Shown here piece after piece: positions 37,426 through 45,994 of a stretch of DNA of 64,000 bases. This DNA is from a virus: the IMG/VR virus record IMGVR_UViG_3300005529_000004, positions 25,260 through 89,259 of that record; one strand, written 5' to 3'. The position numbers and the translations under genes were made by a program. Within the stretch, counting starts at the first letter, position 1, and each line of letters starts with the position of its first letter. Below the pieces are notes generated by a model. The model was not told the DNA's origin. It did not search any database and saw only the letters and a list, made by a program, of their open reading frames with translations.

Positions 37426-38796
37426 GTGCATCAACAGGAAGGGGCGACTCCACCGTCGATCGAGCCAGGGCCAGCTCCGATCGAGAGCGATCGAGAGCTG
37501 AGGCCCGGAGTCGAGTCGGTCGAGGACGTCCCGCAGGCCGATGTGCTGGCAGCCCGCCCCGAGGACTCGTTCTTGGAGAACGACGATCGCACGCCGATCA
37601 TGTGGCACTCGAACGCGCCGTGGGTCGGCTCCGGCTATGGCACGCAGACCGGCCTGTTCGGTCCGCTGCTCGACACGCAGCTCGGCTATGACGTCGCCTT
37701 CAGCGCGTTCTTCGGGTTGCAGGGCGCGCGCCAGGGCTGGGTCGCGCCGAACGGCCGTCCCTACGTCGTGTACCCAAGCGGCCGCGACGGGCACGGCAAC
37801 GACGTCCTGGGCGCACACACGAAGCACTGGTTCCGAGGGCGCGGTGGCTACTGCATCCTGCTGACGGACCCGTGGGTCATGCAGCCGAAGATCATTCAGC
37901 GGCTGCCCTGCCTGGCCTGGGTCCCGGTGGACCACGACCCGATCATGCCGCGCACACACCACTGGTTCAACGAGTCCGGTGCTATCGCCGTGGCCATGAG
38001 CCGCTTCGGGCAGCGCATCCTGGAGGAGGCCGGGCACGAGGACGTCCAGTACGTCCCGCACGGGTTCAACCCACGTACCTTCCGGCCGATCGACCGTGGC
38101 GAGGCGAGGAAGGCGCTCGGGCTGCCGCAGGACGCTTTCGTGGTCGGGATGGTCGCGGCCAACCTCGGCTTCCCGTCACGCAAGAGCTTCTCGCAGGCAT
38201 TCCAGGCATTCGCCCGGCTGCAGGAGAACCACAACGACTGCATCCTCTACCTGCACACCTGGATGGAGAATCCTGACGGCGAGCCGCTCTCTGACATGTG
38301 CGACGGCCTCAAGATCAGGCCGTGGGTCGCGGACCAGTACGGACTGACGCTCGGCATCCCCGACAAGGTCGTCGCGGCCACGCTCAACGCCTTCGACGTG
38401 CTGCTCAACCCGAGCACGGGCGAGGGCTTCGGCGTCCCGCTGCTGGAGGCGCAGGCGTGCGGCACGCCCTGCATCACGACCAACTTCTCCTCGATGCCGG
38501 AGGTCGCGCCGGTCGAAGCAGGCAACTGGTGCGTTGGAGGCCAGCCGGTGTACACGCCGTTTGAGAGCTGGCAGCTCACGCCGAGCGTCGAGGAGCTGGT
38601 CGAGTGCCTGGAGGAAGCCTACGCCGACGACGAACAGCAGCGCCTCCGGCGCCGCGCTTCTACTTGCGCGTGGGCCTCGCAGGAGTACCTCGCGGACGAG
38701 ATCGTGGAGAAGCACTGGAAGCCGGTGCTGGACTGGGCCGCGCAGGAGTTCGTCTGGCGTTCGCGGCGGATGGTCCGCTACTCGGTCGGCGGATGA
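37426..38796 (+). CDS. Glycosyltransferase family 4 (GT-B)
   Basis: WHSNAPWVGSGYGTQ; VGMVAAN...RK; FDVLLNPSTGEGFGVPLLEAQACGTP (E-X7-E). Confidence 0.92.
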   Translation: MHQQEGATPPSIEPGPAPIESDRELRPGVESVEDVPQADVLAARPEDSFLENDDRTPIMWHSNAPWVGSGYGTQTGLFGPLLDTQLGYDVAFSAFFGLQGARQGWVAPNGRPYVVYPSGRDGHGNDVLGAHTKHWFRGRGGYCILLTDPWVMQPKIIQRLPCLAWVPVDHDPIMPRTHHWFNESGAIAVAMSRFGQRILEEAGHEDVQYVPHGFNPRTFRPIDRGEARKALGLPQDAFVVGMVAANLGFPSRKSFSQAFQAFARLQENHNDCILYLHTWMENPDGEPLSDMCDGLKIRPWVADQYGLTLGIPDKVVAATLNAFDVLLNPSTGEGFGVPLLEAQACGTPCITTNFSSMPEVAPVEAGNWCVGGQPVYTPFESWQLTPSVEELVECLEEAYADDEQQRLRRRASTCAWASQEYLADEIVEKHWKPVLDWAAQEFVWRSRRMVRYSVGG

Positions 38797-39908
38797 TTCT
38801 CGTCACCGGCGGCGCCGGGTTCATCGGCCAGCACCTCGTCCGGCGCCTTGCTGCCGAGGGCGAGGAGGTGGCGGTCATCGACTCGTTCGAGGGGCAGGTC
38901 CACCACGGCGTCAGGCACGCCCGGATCGACGGAGCCGCGCGCATGGTCGTCGGCCGACTCGACCAGGACCACCTGCTTCAGCACGCGCTCGACGGCGTAG
39001 ATCGCGTCGTCCACCTTGCAGCGGTCGTCGGCGTCGGCCAGTCGCAGTACGAGGCCGGACGCTACGTCCGCCGAAACACCTACGAGACGGCTGTGCTGAT
39101 GGAGGCGTTGCGCGGGCGCGACATTGAGAAGCTCATTGTCGCCAGCTCGATGAGCATCTACGGAGAGGGCGAGTATCGCTGCGACCACGGCTGGGGTCAG
39201 ATCGGTCACCACCCACTTCCACGTACGCCGGAGAAGATGGCGGCTGGGCAGTGGGGAATCGTCTGCGCGTGCGGCGCGACCATGTCGCCCGTCGCCACGT
39301 CAGAGAACAAGCCGCTGGTGCCCGCGTCCGTCTACGCGATCACGAAGCGCGACCAGGAGGAGCTGTGCCTGGTGCTGGGCGACACCTACGGCATTCCGAC
39401 CACGGCGCTGCGCTTCTTCAACGTCTACGGGCCGGGGCAGGCGCTCGGCAACCCGTACACCGGCGCAGCGGCCATCTTCGCCACGCGCATCCTGAACGGC
39501 TGCCCGCCCATCATCTTCGAGGACGGGCTGCAGAGCCGGGACTTCATCCACGTCAGCGACATCGTGTCCGGCATCGTCGCGGCACTGAAGGCCGGACCCG
39601 AGGCGTCGGGCCAGGCGATCAACCTCGGCACCGGCAAGGCGCGCACGATCGGCCAGACGGCGCACGTGATCGGACAGGCGCTCGGCTGGAACGCGCCGGT
39701 CATCAACGGCACGGGCGAGTTCCGCTCCGGTGACATCCGGCACTGCTTCGCGGACATCTCGAAGGCGCGCAAGTTGCTGCGCTGGGCGCCGACCGTTCAG
39801 TGGGCAAACGGCATCGCCGAGTACGCGCGTTCGGTTGCTGACGAGCGACCCGCCGATCATACTGCGAGGGCGATGACGTCTCTCTACGAGAACGGGCTGA
39901 TTCGGTGA
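38793..39908 (+). CDS. NAD-dependent nucleotide-sugar epimerase/dehydratase (WbiB-like)
   Basis: VTGGAGFIG, ASSMSIYGEG with Cys-containing insert, YAITK, RFFNVYGPGQ, RDFIHVSD. Confidence 0.92.
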   Translation: MILVTGGAGFIGQHLVRRLAAEGEEVAVIDSFEGQVHHGVRHARIDGAARMVVGRLDQDHLLQHALDGVDRVVHLAAVVGVGQSQYEAGRYVRRNTYETAVLMEALRGRDIEKLIVASSMSIYGEGEYRCDHGWGQIGHHPLPRTPEKMAAGQWGIVCACGATMSPVATSENKPLVPASVYAITKRDQEELCLVLGDTYGIPTTALRFFNVYGPGQALGNPYTGAAAIFATRILNGCPPIIFEDGLQSRDFIHVSDIVSGIVAALKAGPEASGQAINLGTGKARTIGQTAHVIGQALGWNAPVINGTGEFRSGDIRHCFADISKARKLLRWAPTVQWANGIAEYARSVADERPADHTARAMTSLYENGLIR

Positions 39909-40000
39909 GGTGGGAGTACATCAAGCTGGCGCTGGCGCTCACGGCTGTGGTCGCTGCCGAGATGCTGCTCTACGCGATCTTCAGGTCGTCCTGGCGATGA
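39905..40000 (+). CDS. Single-TM micro-protein
   Basis: VRWEYIKLALALTAVVAAEMLLYAIFRSSWR, coupled on both sides. Confidence 0.5.
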   Translation: MRWEYIKLALALTAVVAAEMLLYAIFRSSWR

Positions 40001-44358: not shown

Positions 44359-44942
44359 AGGCGTTAGTCCTCGTTGCCCACCCAGACGACGAGGTCCTCT
44401 TCCTCGGCTCCACGATCCTGGCGCATCCCGACTGGGAGTGGGACATCGTCAGCTTCACGCACGACTGGGAGGACTGGCGCGGCCGCGAGTTCGCGGAGGC
44501 GCACAAGGCGCTGCACTACTTCGGCGGTTCGGTGACGTCGGCGATGCTCGGCCTGGCGGACGAGGACGTCCCCGAGAGCGAGTTCTCCGTCTGGGAGGAC
44601 CGCTTCCTTGAGTGGCTGGCGCAGGGCTATGAGGGCTGGGACCGCGTCTACACGCACAACCGCGTCGGCGAGTACGGCCACCCGCACCACATCGCGGTCA
44701 ACGTCATCGCCCGGCGGCACTTCTGCTTCGACGCGCCCGTCTTCGAGTTCTACTACCCGCCGGTCGTCCCTGGCACGCCGCCGCTGTGGTGGGGAGACGC
44801 CGAGTTCGACTTCGCCTGCGACCCACGCAAGAGCGAGGTCTTCCACCGGGCATACGGCGGGCACTACTCCACGCTCAAGGCGCACCAGCCTGCGCTGATC
44901 AACTTCCTGCTCGGCGCGAACGTGGACATGGTCACCCGATGA
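44355..44942 (+). CDS. PIG-L/LmbE family de-N-acetylase
   Basis: VAHPDDE and YTHNRVGEYGHPHH. Confidence 0.88.
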   Translation: MKALVLVAHPDDEVLFLGSTILAHPDWEWDIVSFTHDWEDWRGREFAEAHKALHYFGGSVTSAMLGLADEDVPESEFSVWEDRFLEWLAQGYEGWDRVYTHNRVGEYGHPHHIAVNVIARRHFCFDAPVFEFYYPPVVPGTPPLWWGDAEFDFACDPRKSEVFHRAYGGHYSTLKAHQPALINFLLGANVDMVTR

Positions 44943-45994
44943 GGCGGCTCCGCATCCTGGTCGATCGGCATCACGCCGACCTGCTCTATGCGCTGCAGCG
45001 GCTGTTCGAAGACCGGCTCGGATTCGATCTCTACATCCCGGTCGGGCACGAGTGGTGGGATGAGGGCTTCTGGCAGTTCGGCGCCGTCTTCGGTGACGAT
45101 CGGCTGGCGCAGCAGTACCTCGTCACGAACGACAGCTACCACGAGGTCGGTCCCGGCACCTACGTCTGGCGCGACCCGGCTCACCCGCACCGGCCCGTCA
45201 ACTGCCTGACGCTCGATGCCTTCCGCGCGCTCGGCGACTTTGACTTCGTGCTCGCCTCGGTGCAGGAGAACGCACCGGGCTTCCTCCGGCTGGCCTACGA
45301 GGTCGGCGCACAGCTCCTCTACCACGTCGGCAACACCGGGCAGTTCATCGACTGGGCCTGGGATGCGCTGGTCATCTCGACGTCCGAGATGCCGTACCCG
45401 GAGGGCCGAGGCGTGACGATCCACCAGGAGATCGACTCGGGTCCTGGCGACACGTTCGACTTCTGGCCGCTGGAGAGCGGGCACGTCGTCCGTAACTTCG
45501 TCAACGCCTTCGACCGGCTGCCCGGCTACAACCTTTTTCTCGACGCCGAGGAACGGATGCGCGACCTGGACGTCTGGGAGTTCACCGTCCACGGTCACGA
45601 CGGCCGGGACGGAGACATCCAGCCGATCAGCGCCGTAGCGAAGCTCATGCGGACCGCCGGATTCGGCTGGCACGACAAGCCGGTCGGCGACGGGTTCGGG
45701 CACGTCATCCACGCCTGGGCCGCGATCGGCCGACCGCTGATCGGGCACGCCAGCTACTACACGGGCGAGGGCCACTCGCGCCCACCGAAGATGGCCGCTC
45801 CCTTCTGGCGCGACGGCGAGACCTGCATCGACCTGGATCGGCACGGCCCGGAGGAGACGGTTGCGCTGATGCTGGAGATCGCATCCGACCGCGCCCGGCA
45901 CGAGGCGATGGGCCGCGCGCTCCGCGCGACGTTCGACAGCCTCGTGGACTACCGGGCCGAGGCCGAGGCCGTCGCCCGGCTTCTTGGTATCTAG
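44939..45994 (+). CDS. Putative GT-B glycosyltransferase
   Basis: LRILVDRHH; WHDKPVGDGFGHVIHAWAAIGRPLI acceptor-side motif. Confidence 0.65.
   Translation: MRRLRILVDRHHADLLYALQRLFEDRLGFDLYIPVGHEWWDEGFWQFGAVFGDDRLAQQYLVTNDSYHEVGPGTYVWRDPAHPHRPVNCLTLDAFRALGDFDFVLASVQENAPGFLRLAYEVGAQLLYHVGNTGQFIDWAWDALVISTSEMPYPEGRGVTIHQEIDSGPGDTFDFWPLESGHVVRNFVNAFDRLPGYNLFLDAEERMRDLDVWEFTVHGHDGRDGDIQPISAVAKLMRTAGFGWHDKPVGDGFGHVIHAWAAIGRPLIGHASYYTGEGHSRPPKMAAPFWRDGETCIDLDRHGPEETVALMLEIASDRARHEAMGRALRATFDSLVDYRAEAEAVARLLGI

What the first reader, a model, noticed from the sequence alone, without database searches (positions are those of the whole stretch)
37426..45994. Nine-enzyme glycan assembly line beside the capsid gene, with a Thr-rich collagen fibre as candidate acceptor
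Seen: a translationally coupled 8.5-kb operon directly after the capsid gene and tRNA-Met. It encodes 3 GT-B and 3 GT-A-like transferases (39997 and 41492 are clear paralogs), a nucleotide-sugar epimerase, a methyltransferase and a PIG-L de-N-acetylase; another methyltransferase precedes the scaffold gene. The tail encodes a fibre with dozens of G-A-T triplets (60613-62118). Known: some mycobacteriophages glycosylate capsid and tail with a few GTs; Bacillus BclA collagen-like repeats are O-glycosylated; WbiB-type enzymes make dTDP-6-deoxytalose from dTDP-rhamnose. Inference: the phage builds a complex methylated, de-N-acetylated (cationic) oligosaccharide on its virion or fibres, more elaborate than the phage systems I know. 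Alternatives are DNA hypermodification or host-surface conversion, but no base-hydroxymethylase or flippase is seen.
Basis: partly seen in the sequence, partly recalled or inferred. Interest (0 to 1): 0.82.

Follow-up and report, generated by a model that had tools for sequence, protein, structure and literature searches.

The report
Phage six-glycosyltransferase operon beside capsid gene
An uncultured soil phage carries, right after its capsid gene, nine sugar-handling enzymes whose four-gene core recurs at the same spot in many unrelated uncultured phages, so it most likely sugar-coats the virus particle, though no sugar has been measured.

Summary
Window 37426-45994 is a nine-gene, mostly overlapping operon in a complete 89-kb phage genome. 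It encodes three GT-B glycosyltransferases (g1, g7, g9), three GT-A-like ones (g3, g5, g6), a sugar 4-epimerase, a methyltransferase and a PIG-L deacetylase. Five had no significant Pfam match; folds and profiles typed them. New here: g7, g5, g6 and g9 form a conserved core found in 65 IMG/VR contigs (GC 33-70%). These three families gave no hit in 50,697 GenBank phage records. In 46 of 64 loci the module directly follows the capsid gene, next to five different capsid families. That supports virion glycosylation, as shown for mycobacteriophages, but Corndog's enzymes show no BLAST similarity. Counter-evidence: one lineage holds the module between DNA polymerase and recombinase genes, and nothing identifies the acceptor. 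No hydroxymethylase gene was found, which weighs against DNA glycosylation. Thr-rich collagen-like genes follow the module in four loci, which fits the fibre idea only loosely. The WbiB link is unsupported. This scan noted similar cassettes on other DNA (e1-6028480, e1-6028493 and many others). Verdict: a new, elaborate variant of a known kind. Confidence about 0.6; function untested.

The parts
35999..36991 (+). Major capsid protein gene (XkdG-like); candidate acceptor
   Evidence: phrog_1623 at 7.6e-67. tblastn finds 230 phage records, with about 32% identity to annotated major capsid proteins. 64% identical to the capsid protein of L041.
37004..37243 (+). 79-aa ORF of unknown function between the capsid gene and the operon
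   Evidence: GC3 call. Its only BLAST relative is the 98-aa ORF at the same place in L041. No Pfam or PHROG hit.
37274..37299 (+). Terminator-like hairpin: 11-bp GC-rich stem, 4-nt loop (GCAA), weak U tract
   Evidence: RNA fold of 37244-37330: -35.6 kcal/mol, z -3.95, 0 of 200 shuffles fold as well. Sequence seen. The consensus terminator scan did not list it.
37329..37403 (+). tRNA-Met (CAT)
   Evidence: ARAGORN.
37426..38796 (+). g1: GT4-type GT-B glycosyltransferase (alternative start 37543)
   Evidence: Pfam Glycos_transf_1 3.9e-14, 53 bits against a 26.4 cut-off. phrog_2170 at 1.6e-28. GGGAGGG lies before the GTG at 37426. 38% identical to the GT of Microcystis phage Mae-JY09 and 32% to that of phiPsal1.
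38793..39908 (+). g2: SDR nucleotide-sugar 4-epimerase-like enzyme with an insert of about 44 aa
   Evidence: Pfam Epimerase 3.9e-49. Best PDB matches: 6wjb 3.9e-39, 6dnt, MoeE5, UDP-glucose 4-epimerase 4zrm; Y-A-I-T-K (YxxxK) is visible in the alignment, which breaks at residues 126-169. The NCBIfam GalE hit is below cut-off, 134 against 262 bits.
39997..40986 (+). g3: GT-A-like glycosyltransferase, paralog of g5 (alternative start 39910)
   Evidence: 34% identity to g5, 2e-48; the alignment starts at residue 32 of the 39910 form. No Pfam, NCBIfam or PHROG hit.
40986..41495 (+). g4: class I SAM methyltransferase (Methyltransf_24), probable sugar O-methyltransferase
   Evidence: Pfam 8.2e-11, 43.2 against 26.3 bits. 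Sequence. Homologs lie in 10 of 65 related loci.
41492..42499 (+). g5: GT-A-like glycosyltransferase of a family without a Pfam model; core module member
   Evidence: Weak Glycos_transf_2 hit, 1.6e-3, below cut-off. 91 proteins found including itself, 6 of them carrying PF00535. E92 and D94 are invariant and D93 nearly so. hhalign to the g6 family: 97.6%, 2.8e-12.
42496..43215 (+). g6: GT-A fold glycosyltransferase; core module member
   Evidence: No Pfam, NCBIfam or PHROG hit. AF2 pLDDT 94.2. Foldseek: TarS 5.2e-08, PcManGT, AvpGT, TarP, all at probability 1.00. E90 and D92 are invariant. Present in 53 of 65 loci.
43259..44278 (+). g7: GT4-like GT-B glycosyltransferase; core module member (alternative start 43196)
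   Evidence: No Pfam hit. Family profile against PDB: TarM 5.3e-08, PglA, HepE. Atlas nearest clusters are viral GT4/GT1-like at score 0.99, and the Atlas record starts at residue 22. Present in 57 of 65 loci.
44355..44942 (+). g8: PIG-L/LmbE-type de-N-acetylase
   Evidence: Pfam PIG-L 9.9e-10, 39.4 against 28.2 bits. AHPDDE and HPHH are seen in the translation. A homolog occurs in 1 of 65 loci, L041.
44939..45994 (+). g9: GT-B fold glycosyltransferase of a family without a Pfam model; core module member
   Evidence: No Pfam hit. AF2 pLDDT 93.7, pTM 0.91. Foldseek: HepE 5.6e-12, MshA, PimA, TarM. Present in 58 of 65 loci. 707 cluster representatives at E<=1e-3 among 1.84 billion.
46015..46063 (+). 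Palindrome plus GATAAT promoter-like cassette; marks the end of the operon and the start of the amidoligase operon
Evidence: Sequence read. The sigma-70 consensus scan did not list it.
60613..62118 (+). Collagen-like, Thr-rich tail fibre; speculative acceptor
   Evidence: phrog_6320 tail fiber 1.1e-90. 114 G-X-Y triplets, 45 G-A-T, Thr at Y in 55 of 114.

Best explanation
The operon is a phage-encoded, cytoplasmic glycan assembly line that decorates the phage's own particle proteins. The capsid protein is the most likely acceptor. Thr-rich fibres are a possible second one.

Proposed steps, all inferred except the enzyme typing:
1. Transcription reads through, or restarts after, the hairpin behind the capsid gene, so the enzymes are made late and at lower levels than capsid protein.
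2. g2 epimerises a host UDP-hexose or UDP-HexNAc at C4 to supply a second donor sugar.
3. One GT-B enzyme, probably g1, whose relatives are the GT found alone or with few partners behind capsid genes, puts the first sugar on a Ser/Thr of the acceptor.
4. The conserved core (g7 and g9 are GT-B; g5 and g6 are GT-A; g3 is an extra g5 copy) extends it to an oligosaccharide of up to about six sugars.
5. g4 O-methylates a sugar.
6. g8 removes an N-acetyl group, leaving a free amine.

The coat would shield or stabilise the particle, or change what it sticks to.
For: SHOWN.
- Enzyme classes of all nine genes.
- No hydrophobic segment in any of them.
- g7-g5-g6-g9 recur in one order in 53-58 of 65 IMG/VR loci spanning GC 0.33-0.70.
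- Of 64 loci with module ORFs, 47 have a capsid homolog. In 46 it ends within 2 kb upstream of, or overlaps by at most 70 nt, the first module gene.
- The adjacent capsid genes belong to five PHROG families: 1623, 283/267, 10, 14242 and 1357.
- L041, the nearest relative, has scaffold, capsid (64% identity), g1, g7, PIG-L, g5, g9 and adaptor in that order.
- The cultured phages Mae-JY09 and phiPsal1 have a g1-like GT directly after the capsid gene and before the neck genes.
- In L052/L055 the module lies between terminase and portal genes.
- No Thymidylat_synt in 5 of 5 module-bearing records, 3 of them complete; the control rang in 10 of 14 genomes.
- No Bac_transf in the genome.
- 3 of 5 module-bearing records lack a tyrosine integrase.
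- 18 of 25 loci of the 38-kb lineage carry extra Ser/Thr-rich ORFs (18-37% S+T) between g9 and the adaptor. In 4 loci a Thr-rich collagen-like gene follows g9.

PRECEDENT. Mycobacteriophage GTs encoded among head genes modify capsid and tail-tube proteins. This is Freeman et al. 2023 as cited in passages of PMC11600133, PMC12363180 and PMC13313380. Corndog gp35-38 lie between the portal and protease genes.
Against: - No glycan, acceptor site or expression datum exists. The phage is uncultured and comes from soil metagenomes.
- L038/L039/L063 hold the module between DNA polymerase and UvsX-like recombinase, DNA methyltransferase, Cas4 and RuvC genes.
- In L057 a ParB-methyltransferase lies a few hundred bases downstream, after a small ORF. 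In L061 the module follows a resolvase-like gene.
- Counted by lineage rather than by locus, the capsid adjacency is about 5 to 7 lineages against 1 to 3.
- 37 of the 47 capsid-adjacent loci are one lineage, so they are not independent.
- No acceptor-like protein is conserved across lineages.
- The window's capsid and tail-tube proteins have no Ser/Thr-rich tail.
- Corndog gp35-38 show no BLAST similarity to any operon protein.
- Chromosomal relatives in Cohnella and Paenibacillus sit in glycan clusters without phage genes, so the families are not virion-specific.
- 7 of 25 loci have no extra gene between g9 and the adaptor, so fibres cannot be the universal acceptor.
Confidence: 0.6

Rival explanations
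1. Host envelope modification. The soluble GTs act at the inner face of the membrane on a lipid-linked host wall polymer (teichoic-acid-like or another glycopolymer). They would change the phage receptor, either to block superinfection or to stop progeny sticking to debris, as prophage TarP does in staphylococci (recalled).
For: - g6's fold neighbours include TarS and TarP, and g7's profile hits TarM. These enzymes have no membrane segment, so the absence of a flippase or TM helices does not exclude this reading.
- The genome has a tyrosine integrase at 1.6e-37. So do L041's record and one provirus record, 2 of 5 tested.
Against: - The position inside the late head-to-tail gene block is conserved. 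It is not a typical moron site.
- 3 of 5 module-bearing records lack a tyrosine integrase, two of them complete.
- Six GTs plus tailoring enzymes are far more than known conversion cassettes use.
- The module spans phages of GC 33-70%. Their hosts are unlikely to share one wall polymer.
Confidence: 0.15
2. DNA glycosylation. The GTs put sugars on modified bases of phage DNA to escape restriction, as T4 glucosyltransferases do.
For: - In L038/L039/L063 the module lies within the replication and recombination genes, next to a DNA methyltransferase.
- In L057 a ParB-DNA methyltransferase follows shortly after the module.
- T4 alpha-glucosyltransferase (1y8z) is among g9's fold matches, at rank 33, 5.0e-08. 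A 'DNA alpha-glucosyltransferase' is at rank 12 in BFVD.
Against: - No Thymidylat_synt-type hydroxymethylase in 5 of 5 records. No Tet_JBP either, though that search had no positive control. So no known route to a hydroxyl acceptor on DNA is present.
- The best fold matches are GT4 enzymes of sugar, lipid or protein acceptors.
- Most loci place the module in the late head operon.
- A six-sugar methylated DNA adduct has no precedent known to me (recalled; no literature search on this point was made).
Confidence: 0.07
3. A soluble product. The operon makes a cytoplasmic glycoconjugate or methylated oligosaccharide, following GT4-plus-PIG-L logic as in mycothiol or bacillithiol, or resembling mycobacterial methylmannose polysaccharide. 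It would reprogram host metabolism rather than decorate anything.
For: - g1 hits the MshA and BshA models and g8 hits MshB, all far below cut-off.
- The methylmannose polysaccharide mannosyltransferase 7qsg is rank 4 for g9.
- Cohnella and Paenibacillus relatives sit in clusters with a mannose-1-P guanylyltransferase-like gene, two Methyltransf_24 genes and a sulfotransferase, and I saw no carrier or export genes there.
Against: - This reading gives no reason for the conserved position behind capsid genes.
- The NCBIfam hits are 10- to 13-fold below their cut-offs.
- PIG-L is absent from 64 of 65 related loci.
Confidence: 0.08

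Closest known systems
Virion glycosylation of mycobacteriophages Che8, Corndog and Myrna (Freeman et al. 2023, Cell Host Microbe). The paper is not held. I saw it only as cited in passages of PMC11600133, PMC12363180, PMC13313380 and PMC12582341.
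   Same: Phage-encoded soluble GTs plus an O-methyltransferase are encoded among head genes. Corndog gp35-38 lie between portal and protease. They are reported to modify capsid and tail-tube proteins.
   Different: - No BLAST similarity between Corndog gp35-38 and any operon protein.
- Six GTs, an epimerase and a deacetylase here, against three GTs and one methyltransferase in Corndog.
- The position is after the capsid gene, not before the protease gene.
- The core families g5, g7 and g9 have no hit in 50,697 GenBank phage records.
- Che8 and Myrna proteins were not compared.
Single or double GT cassettes behind the capsid gene in cultured phages: Microcystis phage Mae-JY09 (PP395641) and Pontimonas phage phiPsal1 (MG835450)
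   Same: A g1 homolog (38% and 32% identity) lies directly after the capsid gene and before the neck genes. phiPsal1 adds a SAM methyltransferase and a GT2.
   Different: They lack the g7-g5-g6-g9 core. Their function is untested as far as the records show.
Chlorovirus PBCV-1 and giant-virus capsid or fibril glycosylation by virus-encoded cytoplasmic GTs. This is recalled; the review PMC9614988 was seen only in a search listing.
   Same: Both have a multi-enzyme, virus-encoded, membrane-independent assembly of a methylated oligosaccharide on particle proteins. g9's best viral fold neighbours are giant-virus GT1-family proteins.
   Different: Those are eukaryotic viruses. The similarity is at fold level only, 8-15% identity.
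Bacillus BclA exosporium collagen-like glycoprotein (recalled)
   Same: Its Thr-rich G-X-Y repeats are O-glycosylated. The window's fibre has Thr at Y in 55 of 114 triplets, and Thr-rich collagen-like genes follow g9 in L007, L030, L040 and L049.
   Different: There is no evidence that phage collagen fibres are glycosylated. Only 7 of the 73 loci on hand, cultured-phage and genome loci included, show a collagen-like run of 12 or more triplets within the DNA fetched.
Staphylococcal wall teichoic acid glycosyltransferases TarM, TarS and TarP
   Same: The folds match. The g7 profile hits TarM at 5.3e-08. The g6 model hits TarS at 5.2e-08 and TarP. All are soluble enzymes.
   Different: Similarity is remote, 10-16% identity. 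Those enzymes add single sugars to a host polymer.

Membership tests
Actinobacteriophage virion glycosylation systems (Che8/Corndog/Myrna type) | Phage-encoded glycosyltransferases, with a methyltransferase, placed among virion structural genes | tested here: met
   The operon lies between the capsid gene (35999-36991) and the head-tail adaptor (51203-51862).
Actinobacteriophage virion glycosylation systems (Che8/Corndog/Myrna type) | Sequence homology to the characterised enzymes | tested here: not met
   blastp of Corndog gp35-38 against all operon proteins gave no hit at E<=0.01. Che8 and Myrna enzymes were not tested.
Actinobacteriophage virion glycosylation systems (Che8/Corndog/Myrna type) | Glycans detected on capsid and tail-tube subunits | not testable with these tools
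   The phage is uncultured. Only soil metagenome DNA runs hold it.
GT-B fold, GT4-like glycosyltransferases (g1, g7, g9) | Two-Rossmann-domain GT-B fold, or a significant match to GT4 models or structures | tested here: met
   g1: Pfam Glycos_transf_1, 53 bits against 26.4. g9: AF2 and Foldseek, HepE 5.6e-12, MshA, PimA. g7: profile against TarM, 5.3e-08.
GT-B fold, GT4-like glycosyltransferases (g1, g7, g9) | Pfam gathering threshold reached | tested here: not met
   Met for g1 only. g7 and g9 have no Pfam hit at E<=0.01. They are separate families. The E-x7-E motif was not examined.
GT-A fold, GT2-like glycosyltransferases (g3, g5, g6) | GT-A fold with an acidic DxD-like motif | tested here: met
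   g6: AF2 and Foldseek, TarS, TarP, PcManGT. E90 and D92 are invariant in g6. E92 and D94 are invariant in g5. The two motifs align in hhalign, 97.6%. g3 and g5 were not folded themselves.
GT-A fold, GT2-like glycosyltransferases (g3, g5, g6) | Pfam Glycos_transf_2 gathering threshold reached | tested here: not met
   g5 scores 18.8 bits against 23.3. g3 and g6 have no hit.
PIG-L/LmbE de-N-acetylases (g8) | Pfam PIG-L above threshold, plus the metal-binding motifs | tested here: met
   39.4 bits against 28.2. AHPDDE and HPHH are in the translation. That these are the metal-binding motifs is recalled.
Nucleotide-sugar C4-epimerases of the extended SDR family (g2) | Rossmann SDR domain with YxxxK and best matches to 4-epimerases | tested here: met
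   Pfam 3.9e-49. Y-A-I-T-K is seen. Top PDB matches are epimerase/dehydratase entries, MoeE5 and UDP-glucose 4-epimerase. The GalE equivalog cut-off is not reached, 134 against 262 bits, so substrate is open.
   No WbiB entry appears among the named top PDB matches. No NTP_transferase (RmlA-type) is in the genome. WbiB itself was not compared.
T4-type DNA glucosylation | A hydroxymethyl-pyrimidine-forming enzyme (thymidylate-synthase homolog) in the genome | tested here: not met
   PF00303 is absent from 5 of 5 module-bearing records; the control rang in 10 of 14 genomes.
Lysogenic-conversion glycosyltransferase cassettes | Temperate phage, with membrane-linked components (GtrA/flippase-type) or a phosphoglycosyl transferase | tested here: inconclusive
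   An integrase is present. No TM segment in g1-g9. No Bac_transf. GtrA and Wzx families were not searched.

The most novel reading that the evidence does not exclude
The four unmodelled GT families (g7, g5, g6, g9) are the core of a widespread, so far undescribed phage 'capsid-coat' pathway. It would build one defined methylated oligosaccharide on particles of phages infecting very different bacteria. In this phage the pathway would be extended in the manner of mycothiol synthesis: GT, then PIG-L deacetylase, then re-acylation of the freed sugar amine with an amino acid. The re-acylation would be done by the Amidoligase_2 and glutamine-amidotransferase operon that starts 102 nt downstream (46097-48431). 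The result would be an aminoacylated, charged virion glycan.
Probability: 0.12. Interest if true: 0.8.

Novelty: new variant of a known kind. Interest (0 to 1): 0.55.

Why it matters
Virion glycosylation has been shown experimentally only for a few mycobacteriophages, where it dampens antibody recognition (as cited in passages of PMC11600133 and PMC12363180).

This locus points to a different enzyme set with at least four GT families that lack models. That set is conserved as a module in at least 65 uncultured phage contigs across a wide GC range, and usually sits behind the capsid gene.

If the module coats particles, three things follow:
- Phage glycosylation would be common in soil and water phages, with no bearing on mammalian immunity there. 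That raises the question of what it is for: stability, adhesion or escape from host recognition.
- Many 'hypothetical' genes in viromes would gain an annotation.
- A compact six-enzyme cytoplasmic protein-glycosylation toolkit would become available.

The exceptions in replication modules make the acceptor question sharp and testable.

Tried and rejected
TRIED WITHOUT RESULT.
- Single-sequence searches of g5, g6, g7 and g9 against PDB and the g5 profile against PDB found nothing significant.
- A single-sequence IMG/VR scan with g5 found none. The alignment-based scan was needed.
- megablast of 35000-47100 against GenBank phages hit only the tRNA.
- g7 and g9 show no BLAST similarity to each other. 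hhalign gives 80%, 1.4e-05.
- A conserved small 'acceptor' ORF next to the module was sought and not found.
- The window's tail-tube protein has a relative only in L041.
- N-terminal extensions of two long g9 relatives (P0227, P0192) are not g6 domains.
- The consensus scan found 0 promoter-like and 2 terminator-like sites, fewer than the shuffles gave.
- Tet_JBP was found nowhere, but the control genomes also gave nothing, so this is uninformative.
- The look-up of sequencing runs listed no RNA holder, only two soil-metagenome DNA runs that may be the source.

REJECTED.
- ORF 42555-43733 as a gene: wrong frame by GC3.
- The WbiB reading of g2.
- The 34325-34921 product as a firm methyltransferase.

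NOT DONE.
- g3 and g5 were not folded (fold cap reached).
- Che8 and Myrna enzymes were not compared.
- GtrA, Wzx and serine integrase families were not searched.
- The Pfam and PHROG cap (12) prevented annotation of the seventh GT and of most loci.
- Supplements of papers were not consulted.
- Freeman et al. 2023 could not be read.

Full report
WHERE IT IS. The window is bases 25260-89259 of a complete 89,259-bp IMG/VR virus record with direct terminal repeats. GC is about 0.63-0.70. Two soil-metagenome DNA runs hold the operon and may be its source. Because GC is high, the raw ORF list is crowded, so I called genes by third-position GC.

THE OPERON. Nine + strand genes fill 37426-45994.
- Four junctions overlap by 4 nt and one by 1 nt. 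g7/g8 are 76 nt apart.
- Upstream lie the major capsid gene (35999-36991; phrog_1623 at 7.6e-67; about 32% identical to annotated capsid proteins) and a 79-aa ORF.
- Next comes a strong hairpin at 37274-37299 (z -3.95) and tRNA-Met.
- Downstream, a palindrome plus GATAAT element (46015-46063) opens a separate operon. It encodes Amidoligase_2, a small ORF, a glutamine amidotransferase, an ATP-dependent DNA ligase-like protein and a GGDEF protein.
- The head-tail adaptor follows at 51203.

WHAT THE NINE GENES ENCODE.
- Pfam is clear for g1 (Glycos_transf_1), g2 (Epimerase), g4 (Methyltransf_24) and g8 (PIG-L).
- g3, g6, g7 and g9 had no Pfam, NCBIfam or PHROG hit. g5 had only a sub-threshold GT2 hit.
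- g3 and g5 are paralogs: 34% identity, 2e-48.
- With alignments of relatives I obtained confident AF2 models. g9 scored pLDDT 93.7 and g6 scored 94.2.
- g9 matches GT4-type GT-B enzymes: HepE 5.6e-12, MshA, PimA, TarM.
- g6 matches GT-A enzymes: TarS 5.2e-08, TarP, PcManGT.
- The g7 family profile hits TarM at 5.3e-08. The Atlas places g7 among viral GT4-like clusters.
- The g5 family aligns to the g6 family at 97.6% probability, with the E-D-D and E-Q-D motifs in register.
- g2's best solved relatives are epimerase/dehydratase entries, MoeE5 and UDP-glucose 4-epimerase. YxxxK is present, and an insert of about 44 residues interrupts the alignment.
- g8 has AHPDDE and HPHH.
The WbiB lead is not supported.

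THE MAIN NEW RESULT: A CONSERVED CORE MODULE.
- The g5 family has 91 members in the large protein collection, the query included.
- An alignment-based scan of IMG/VR returned 65 loci.
- tblastn of the window's proteins on these loci found g9 in 58, g7 in 57, g6 in 53, a g1-like GT4 in 36, g4 in 10, g2 in 4 and PIG-L in 1.
- The order g7, methyltransferase, g5, g6, g9 is kept.
- The loci span GC 0.33-0.70.
- The g9 profile finds 707 cluster representatives at E<=1e-3, and 391 at 1e-30, among 1.84 billion.
- By contrast g5, g7 and g9 have no tblastn hit in 50,697 GenBank phage records. So the core is known only from uncultured phages.

POSITION OF THE MODULE.
- In a 37-kb complete genome (L025) the order is portal, MuF-like minor head protein, scaffold, P22-like capsid protein, GT4, GT4, g7, two methyltransferases, g5-type, g6, g9, a fibre-like 850-aa protein, adaptor and tail tube.
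- Of 64 loci with module ORFs, 47 have a capsid homolog. In 42 it ends 0-1500 nt before the first module gene. In 3 it overlaps slightly and in 1 it is 1981 nt away. In 1 (L059) it is 10 kb downstream.
- Nine loci are cut too short to tell. Eight have no hit with my four capsid queries.
- Of those eight, L066 has yet another capsid family (phrog_1357) directly upstream.
- L052 and L055 hold the module between terminase and portal.
- L038, L039 and L063 hold it between DNA polymerase and UvsX-like, DNA methyltransferase, Cas4 and RuvC genes.
- In L057 a ParB-methyltransferase follows shortly after the module. In L061 the module follows a resolvase-like gene.
- The capsid genes next to the module belong to five PHROG families.
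- The nearest relative, L041 (92 kb), keeps the capsid-module-adaptor layout.
- Two cultured phages have a g1-like GT right after the capsid gene. A third, TJE1, has it before the terminase.
A module that moves between unrelated head-gene sets yet mostly lands behind the capsid gene is best explained by a role tied to the particle. The caveat is that 37 of the 47 loci are one lineage, and that one lineage clearly places the module among replication genes.

RIVAL READINGS.
- DNA glycosylation needs a hydroxylated base. No thymidylate-synthase homolog is present in 5 of 5 module-bearing records, with a positive control. The Tet_JBP search was negative but lacked a control.
- Host-surface conversion is not excluded by the lack of membrane segments or of Bac_transf, because TarM, TarS and TarP are soluble. 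The genome has an integrase. However, 3 of 5 module-bearing records lack one, and the late-operon position argues against it.
- A soluble product is suggested only by far-sub-threshold MshA, BshA and MshB hits and by chromosomal relatives in Cohnella and Paenibacillus glycan clusters.

THE ACCEPTOR.
- The fibre has 45 G-A-T triplets among 114.
- Thr-rich collagen-like genes directly follow g9 in L007, L030, L040 and L049.
- 18 of 25 loci of the 38-kb lineage carry extra Ser/Thr-rich ORFs between g9 and the adaptor, while 7 carry none.
- No small protein is conserved across lineages.
- The window's capsid and tail-tube proteins have no Ser/Thr-rich tail.
So the capsid protein is the only acceptor candidate common by position. 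Fibres may be additional acceptors.

COMPARISON WITH WHAT IS KNOWN.
- Mycobacteriophages Che8, Corndog and Myrna glycosylate capsid and tail-tube proteins with their own GTs. This is Freeman et al. 2023, which is not held. I saw it as cited in passages of PMC11600133, PMC12363180, PMC13313380 and PMC12582341.
- Corndog gp35-38 lie between portal and protease. They show no BLAST similarity to the operon's proteins.
- A paper on phages of freshwater actinobacteria (PMC10202952, passages) proposes DNA protection or superinfection exclusion for their glycosyltransferases.
- My searches found no description of this core module. This rests on those five searches of the held library only.
- Within this scan, similar cassettes were noted many times. 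Two unchecked notes on another genome share words with g9.

VERDICT. This is a new and unusually elaborate variant of phage virion glycosylation, built from GT families without models. The acceptor is unproven and one real counter-example exists.

Noticed in passing
window 46097-50360, with 31489-32019: A separate operon follows the glycan operon. It encodes Amidoligase_2 (7.6e-25), an 88-aa ORF, a class II glutamine amidotransferase (GATase_6 5.2e-19), an ATP-dependent DNA ligase-like protein (3.7e-23) and a stand-alone GGDEF domain (4e-31). A gamma-glutamyl cyclotransferase lies at 31489-32019. The amidoligase, amidotransferase and cyclotransferase trio resembles predicted peptide-tagging systems (recalled). 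None of it was found near the module in L041.
   Followed up: partly
G000:C1:2430-3551 (outside the window; L092 964-2085): A seventh glycosyltransferase (Glycos_transf_1, 1.1e-14; 373 aa by my GC3 call) lies near the left end of the genome. It has no BLAST similarity to the operon's GTs.
   Followed up: partly
G000:C1:15143-15643 (-), outside the window: A tyrosine integrase (1.6e-37) is present, so the phage may be temperate.
   Followed up: no
L078, L081, L083, L084, L088, L089 (Cohnella and Paenibacillus chromosomes): g9-like genes, often duplicated, lie in chromosomal glycan clusters without phage structural genes. The clusters hold GT4s, two Methyltransf_24 genes (about 50% identical to the phage methyltransferase), a g6-like gene, a mannose-1-P guanylyltransferase-like gene, a sulfotransferase and PIG-L. 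In L078 a polysaccharide deacetylase and an alpha/beta-type SASP gene lie nearby. These are possible cellular counterparts in cultured hosts.
   Followed up: partly
L038 1-18600 (also L039, L063): In this low-GC lineage the whole GT module is inserted between a family-A-like DNA polymerase (phrog_405, 1e-297) and UvsX-like recombinase, DNA methyltransferase, Cas4-like exonuclease and RuvC genes. This is the clearest exception to capsid adjacency.
   Followed up: partly
L025 13376-15928; L008 14321-16786; L050, L053 and others: In the 38-kb lineage the space between g9 and the adaptor often holds a protein of about 185 aa with 25-31% Ser+Thr, plus a large Ser/Thr-rich protein of 480-1800 aa. 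The large one in L025 hits a tail-fibre PHROG at 6.7e-08. Their head-side position suggests head fibres or decoration proteins.
   Followed up: partly
window 34325-34921: A 198-aa protein of phrog_3603 (6.6e-56, unknown function) has only a sub-threshold methyltransferase hit. A 45%-identical homolog lies between the fibre and adaptor genes of L049.
   Followed up: partly
L086 (Vitreimonas sp. MAG, 1.4-Mb contig): A complete-looking copy of the 38-kb phage lineage (GC 0.41 in the locus) sits inside a 1.4-Mb contig labelled as an alphaproteobacterial MAG. It is either a prophage or a mis-assembly.
   Followed up: no
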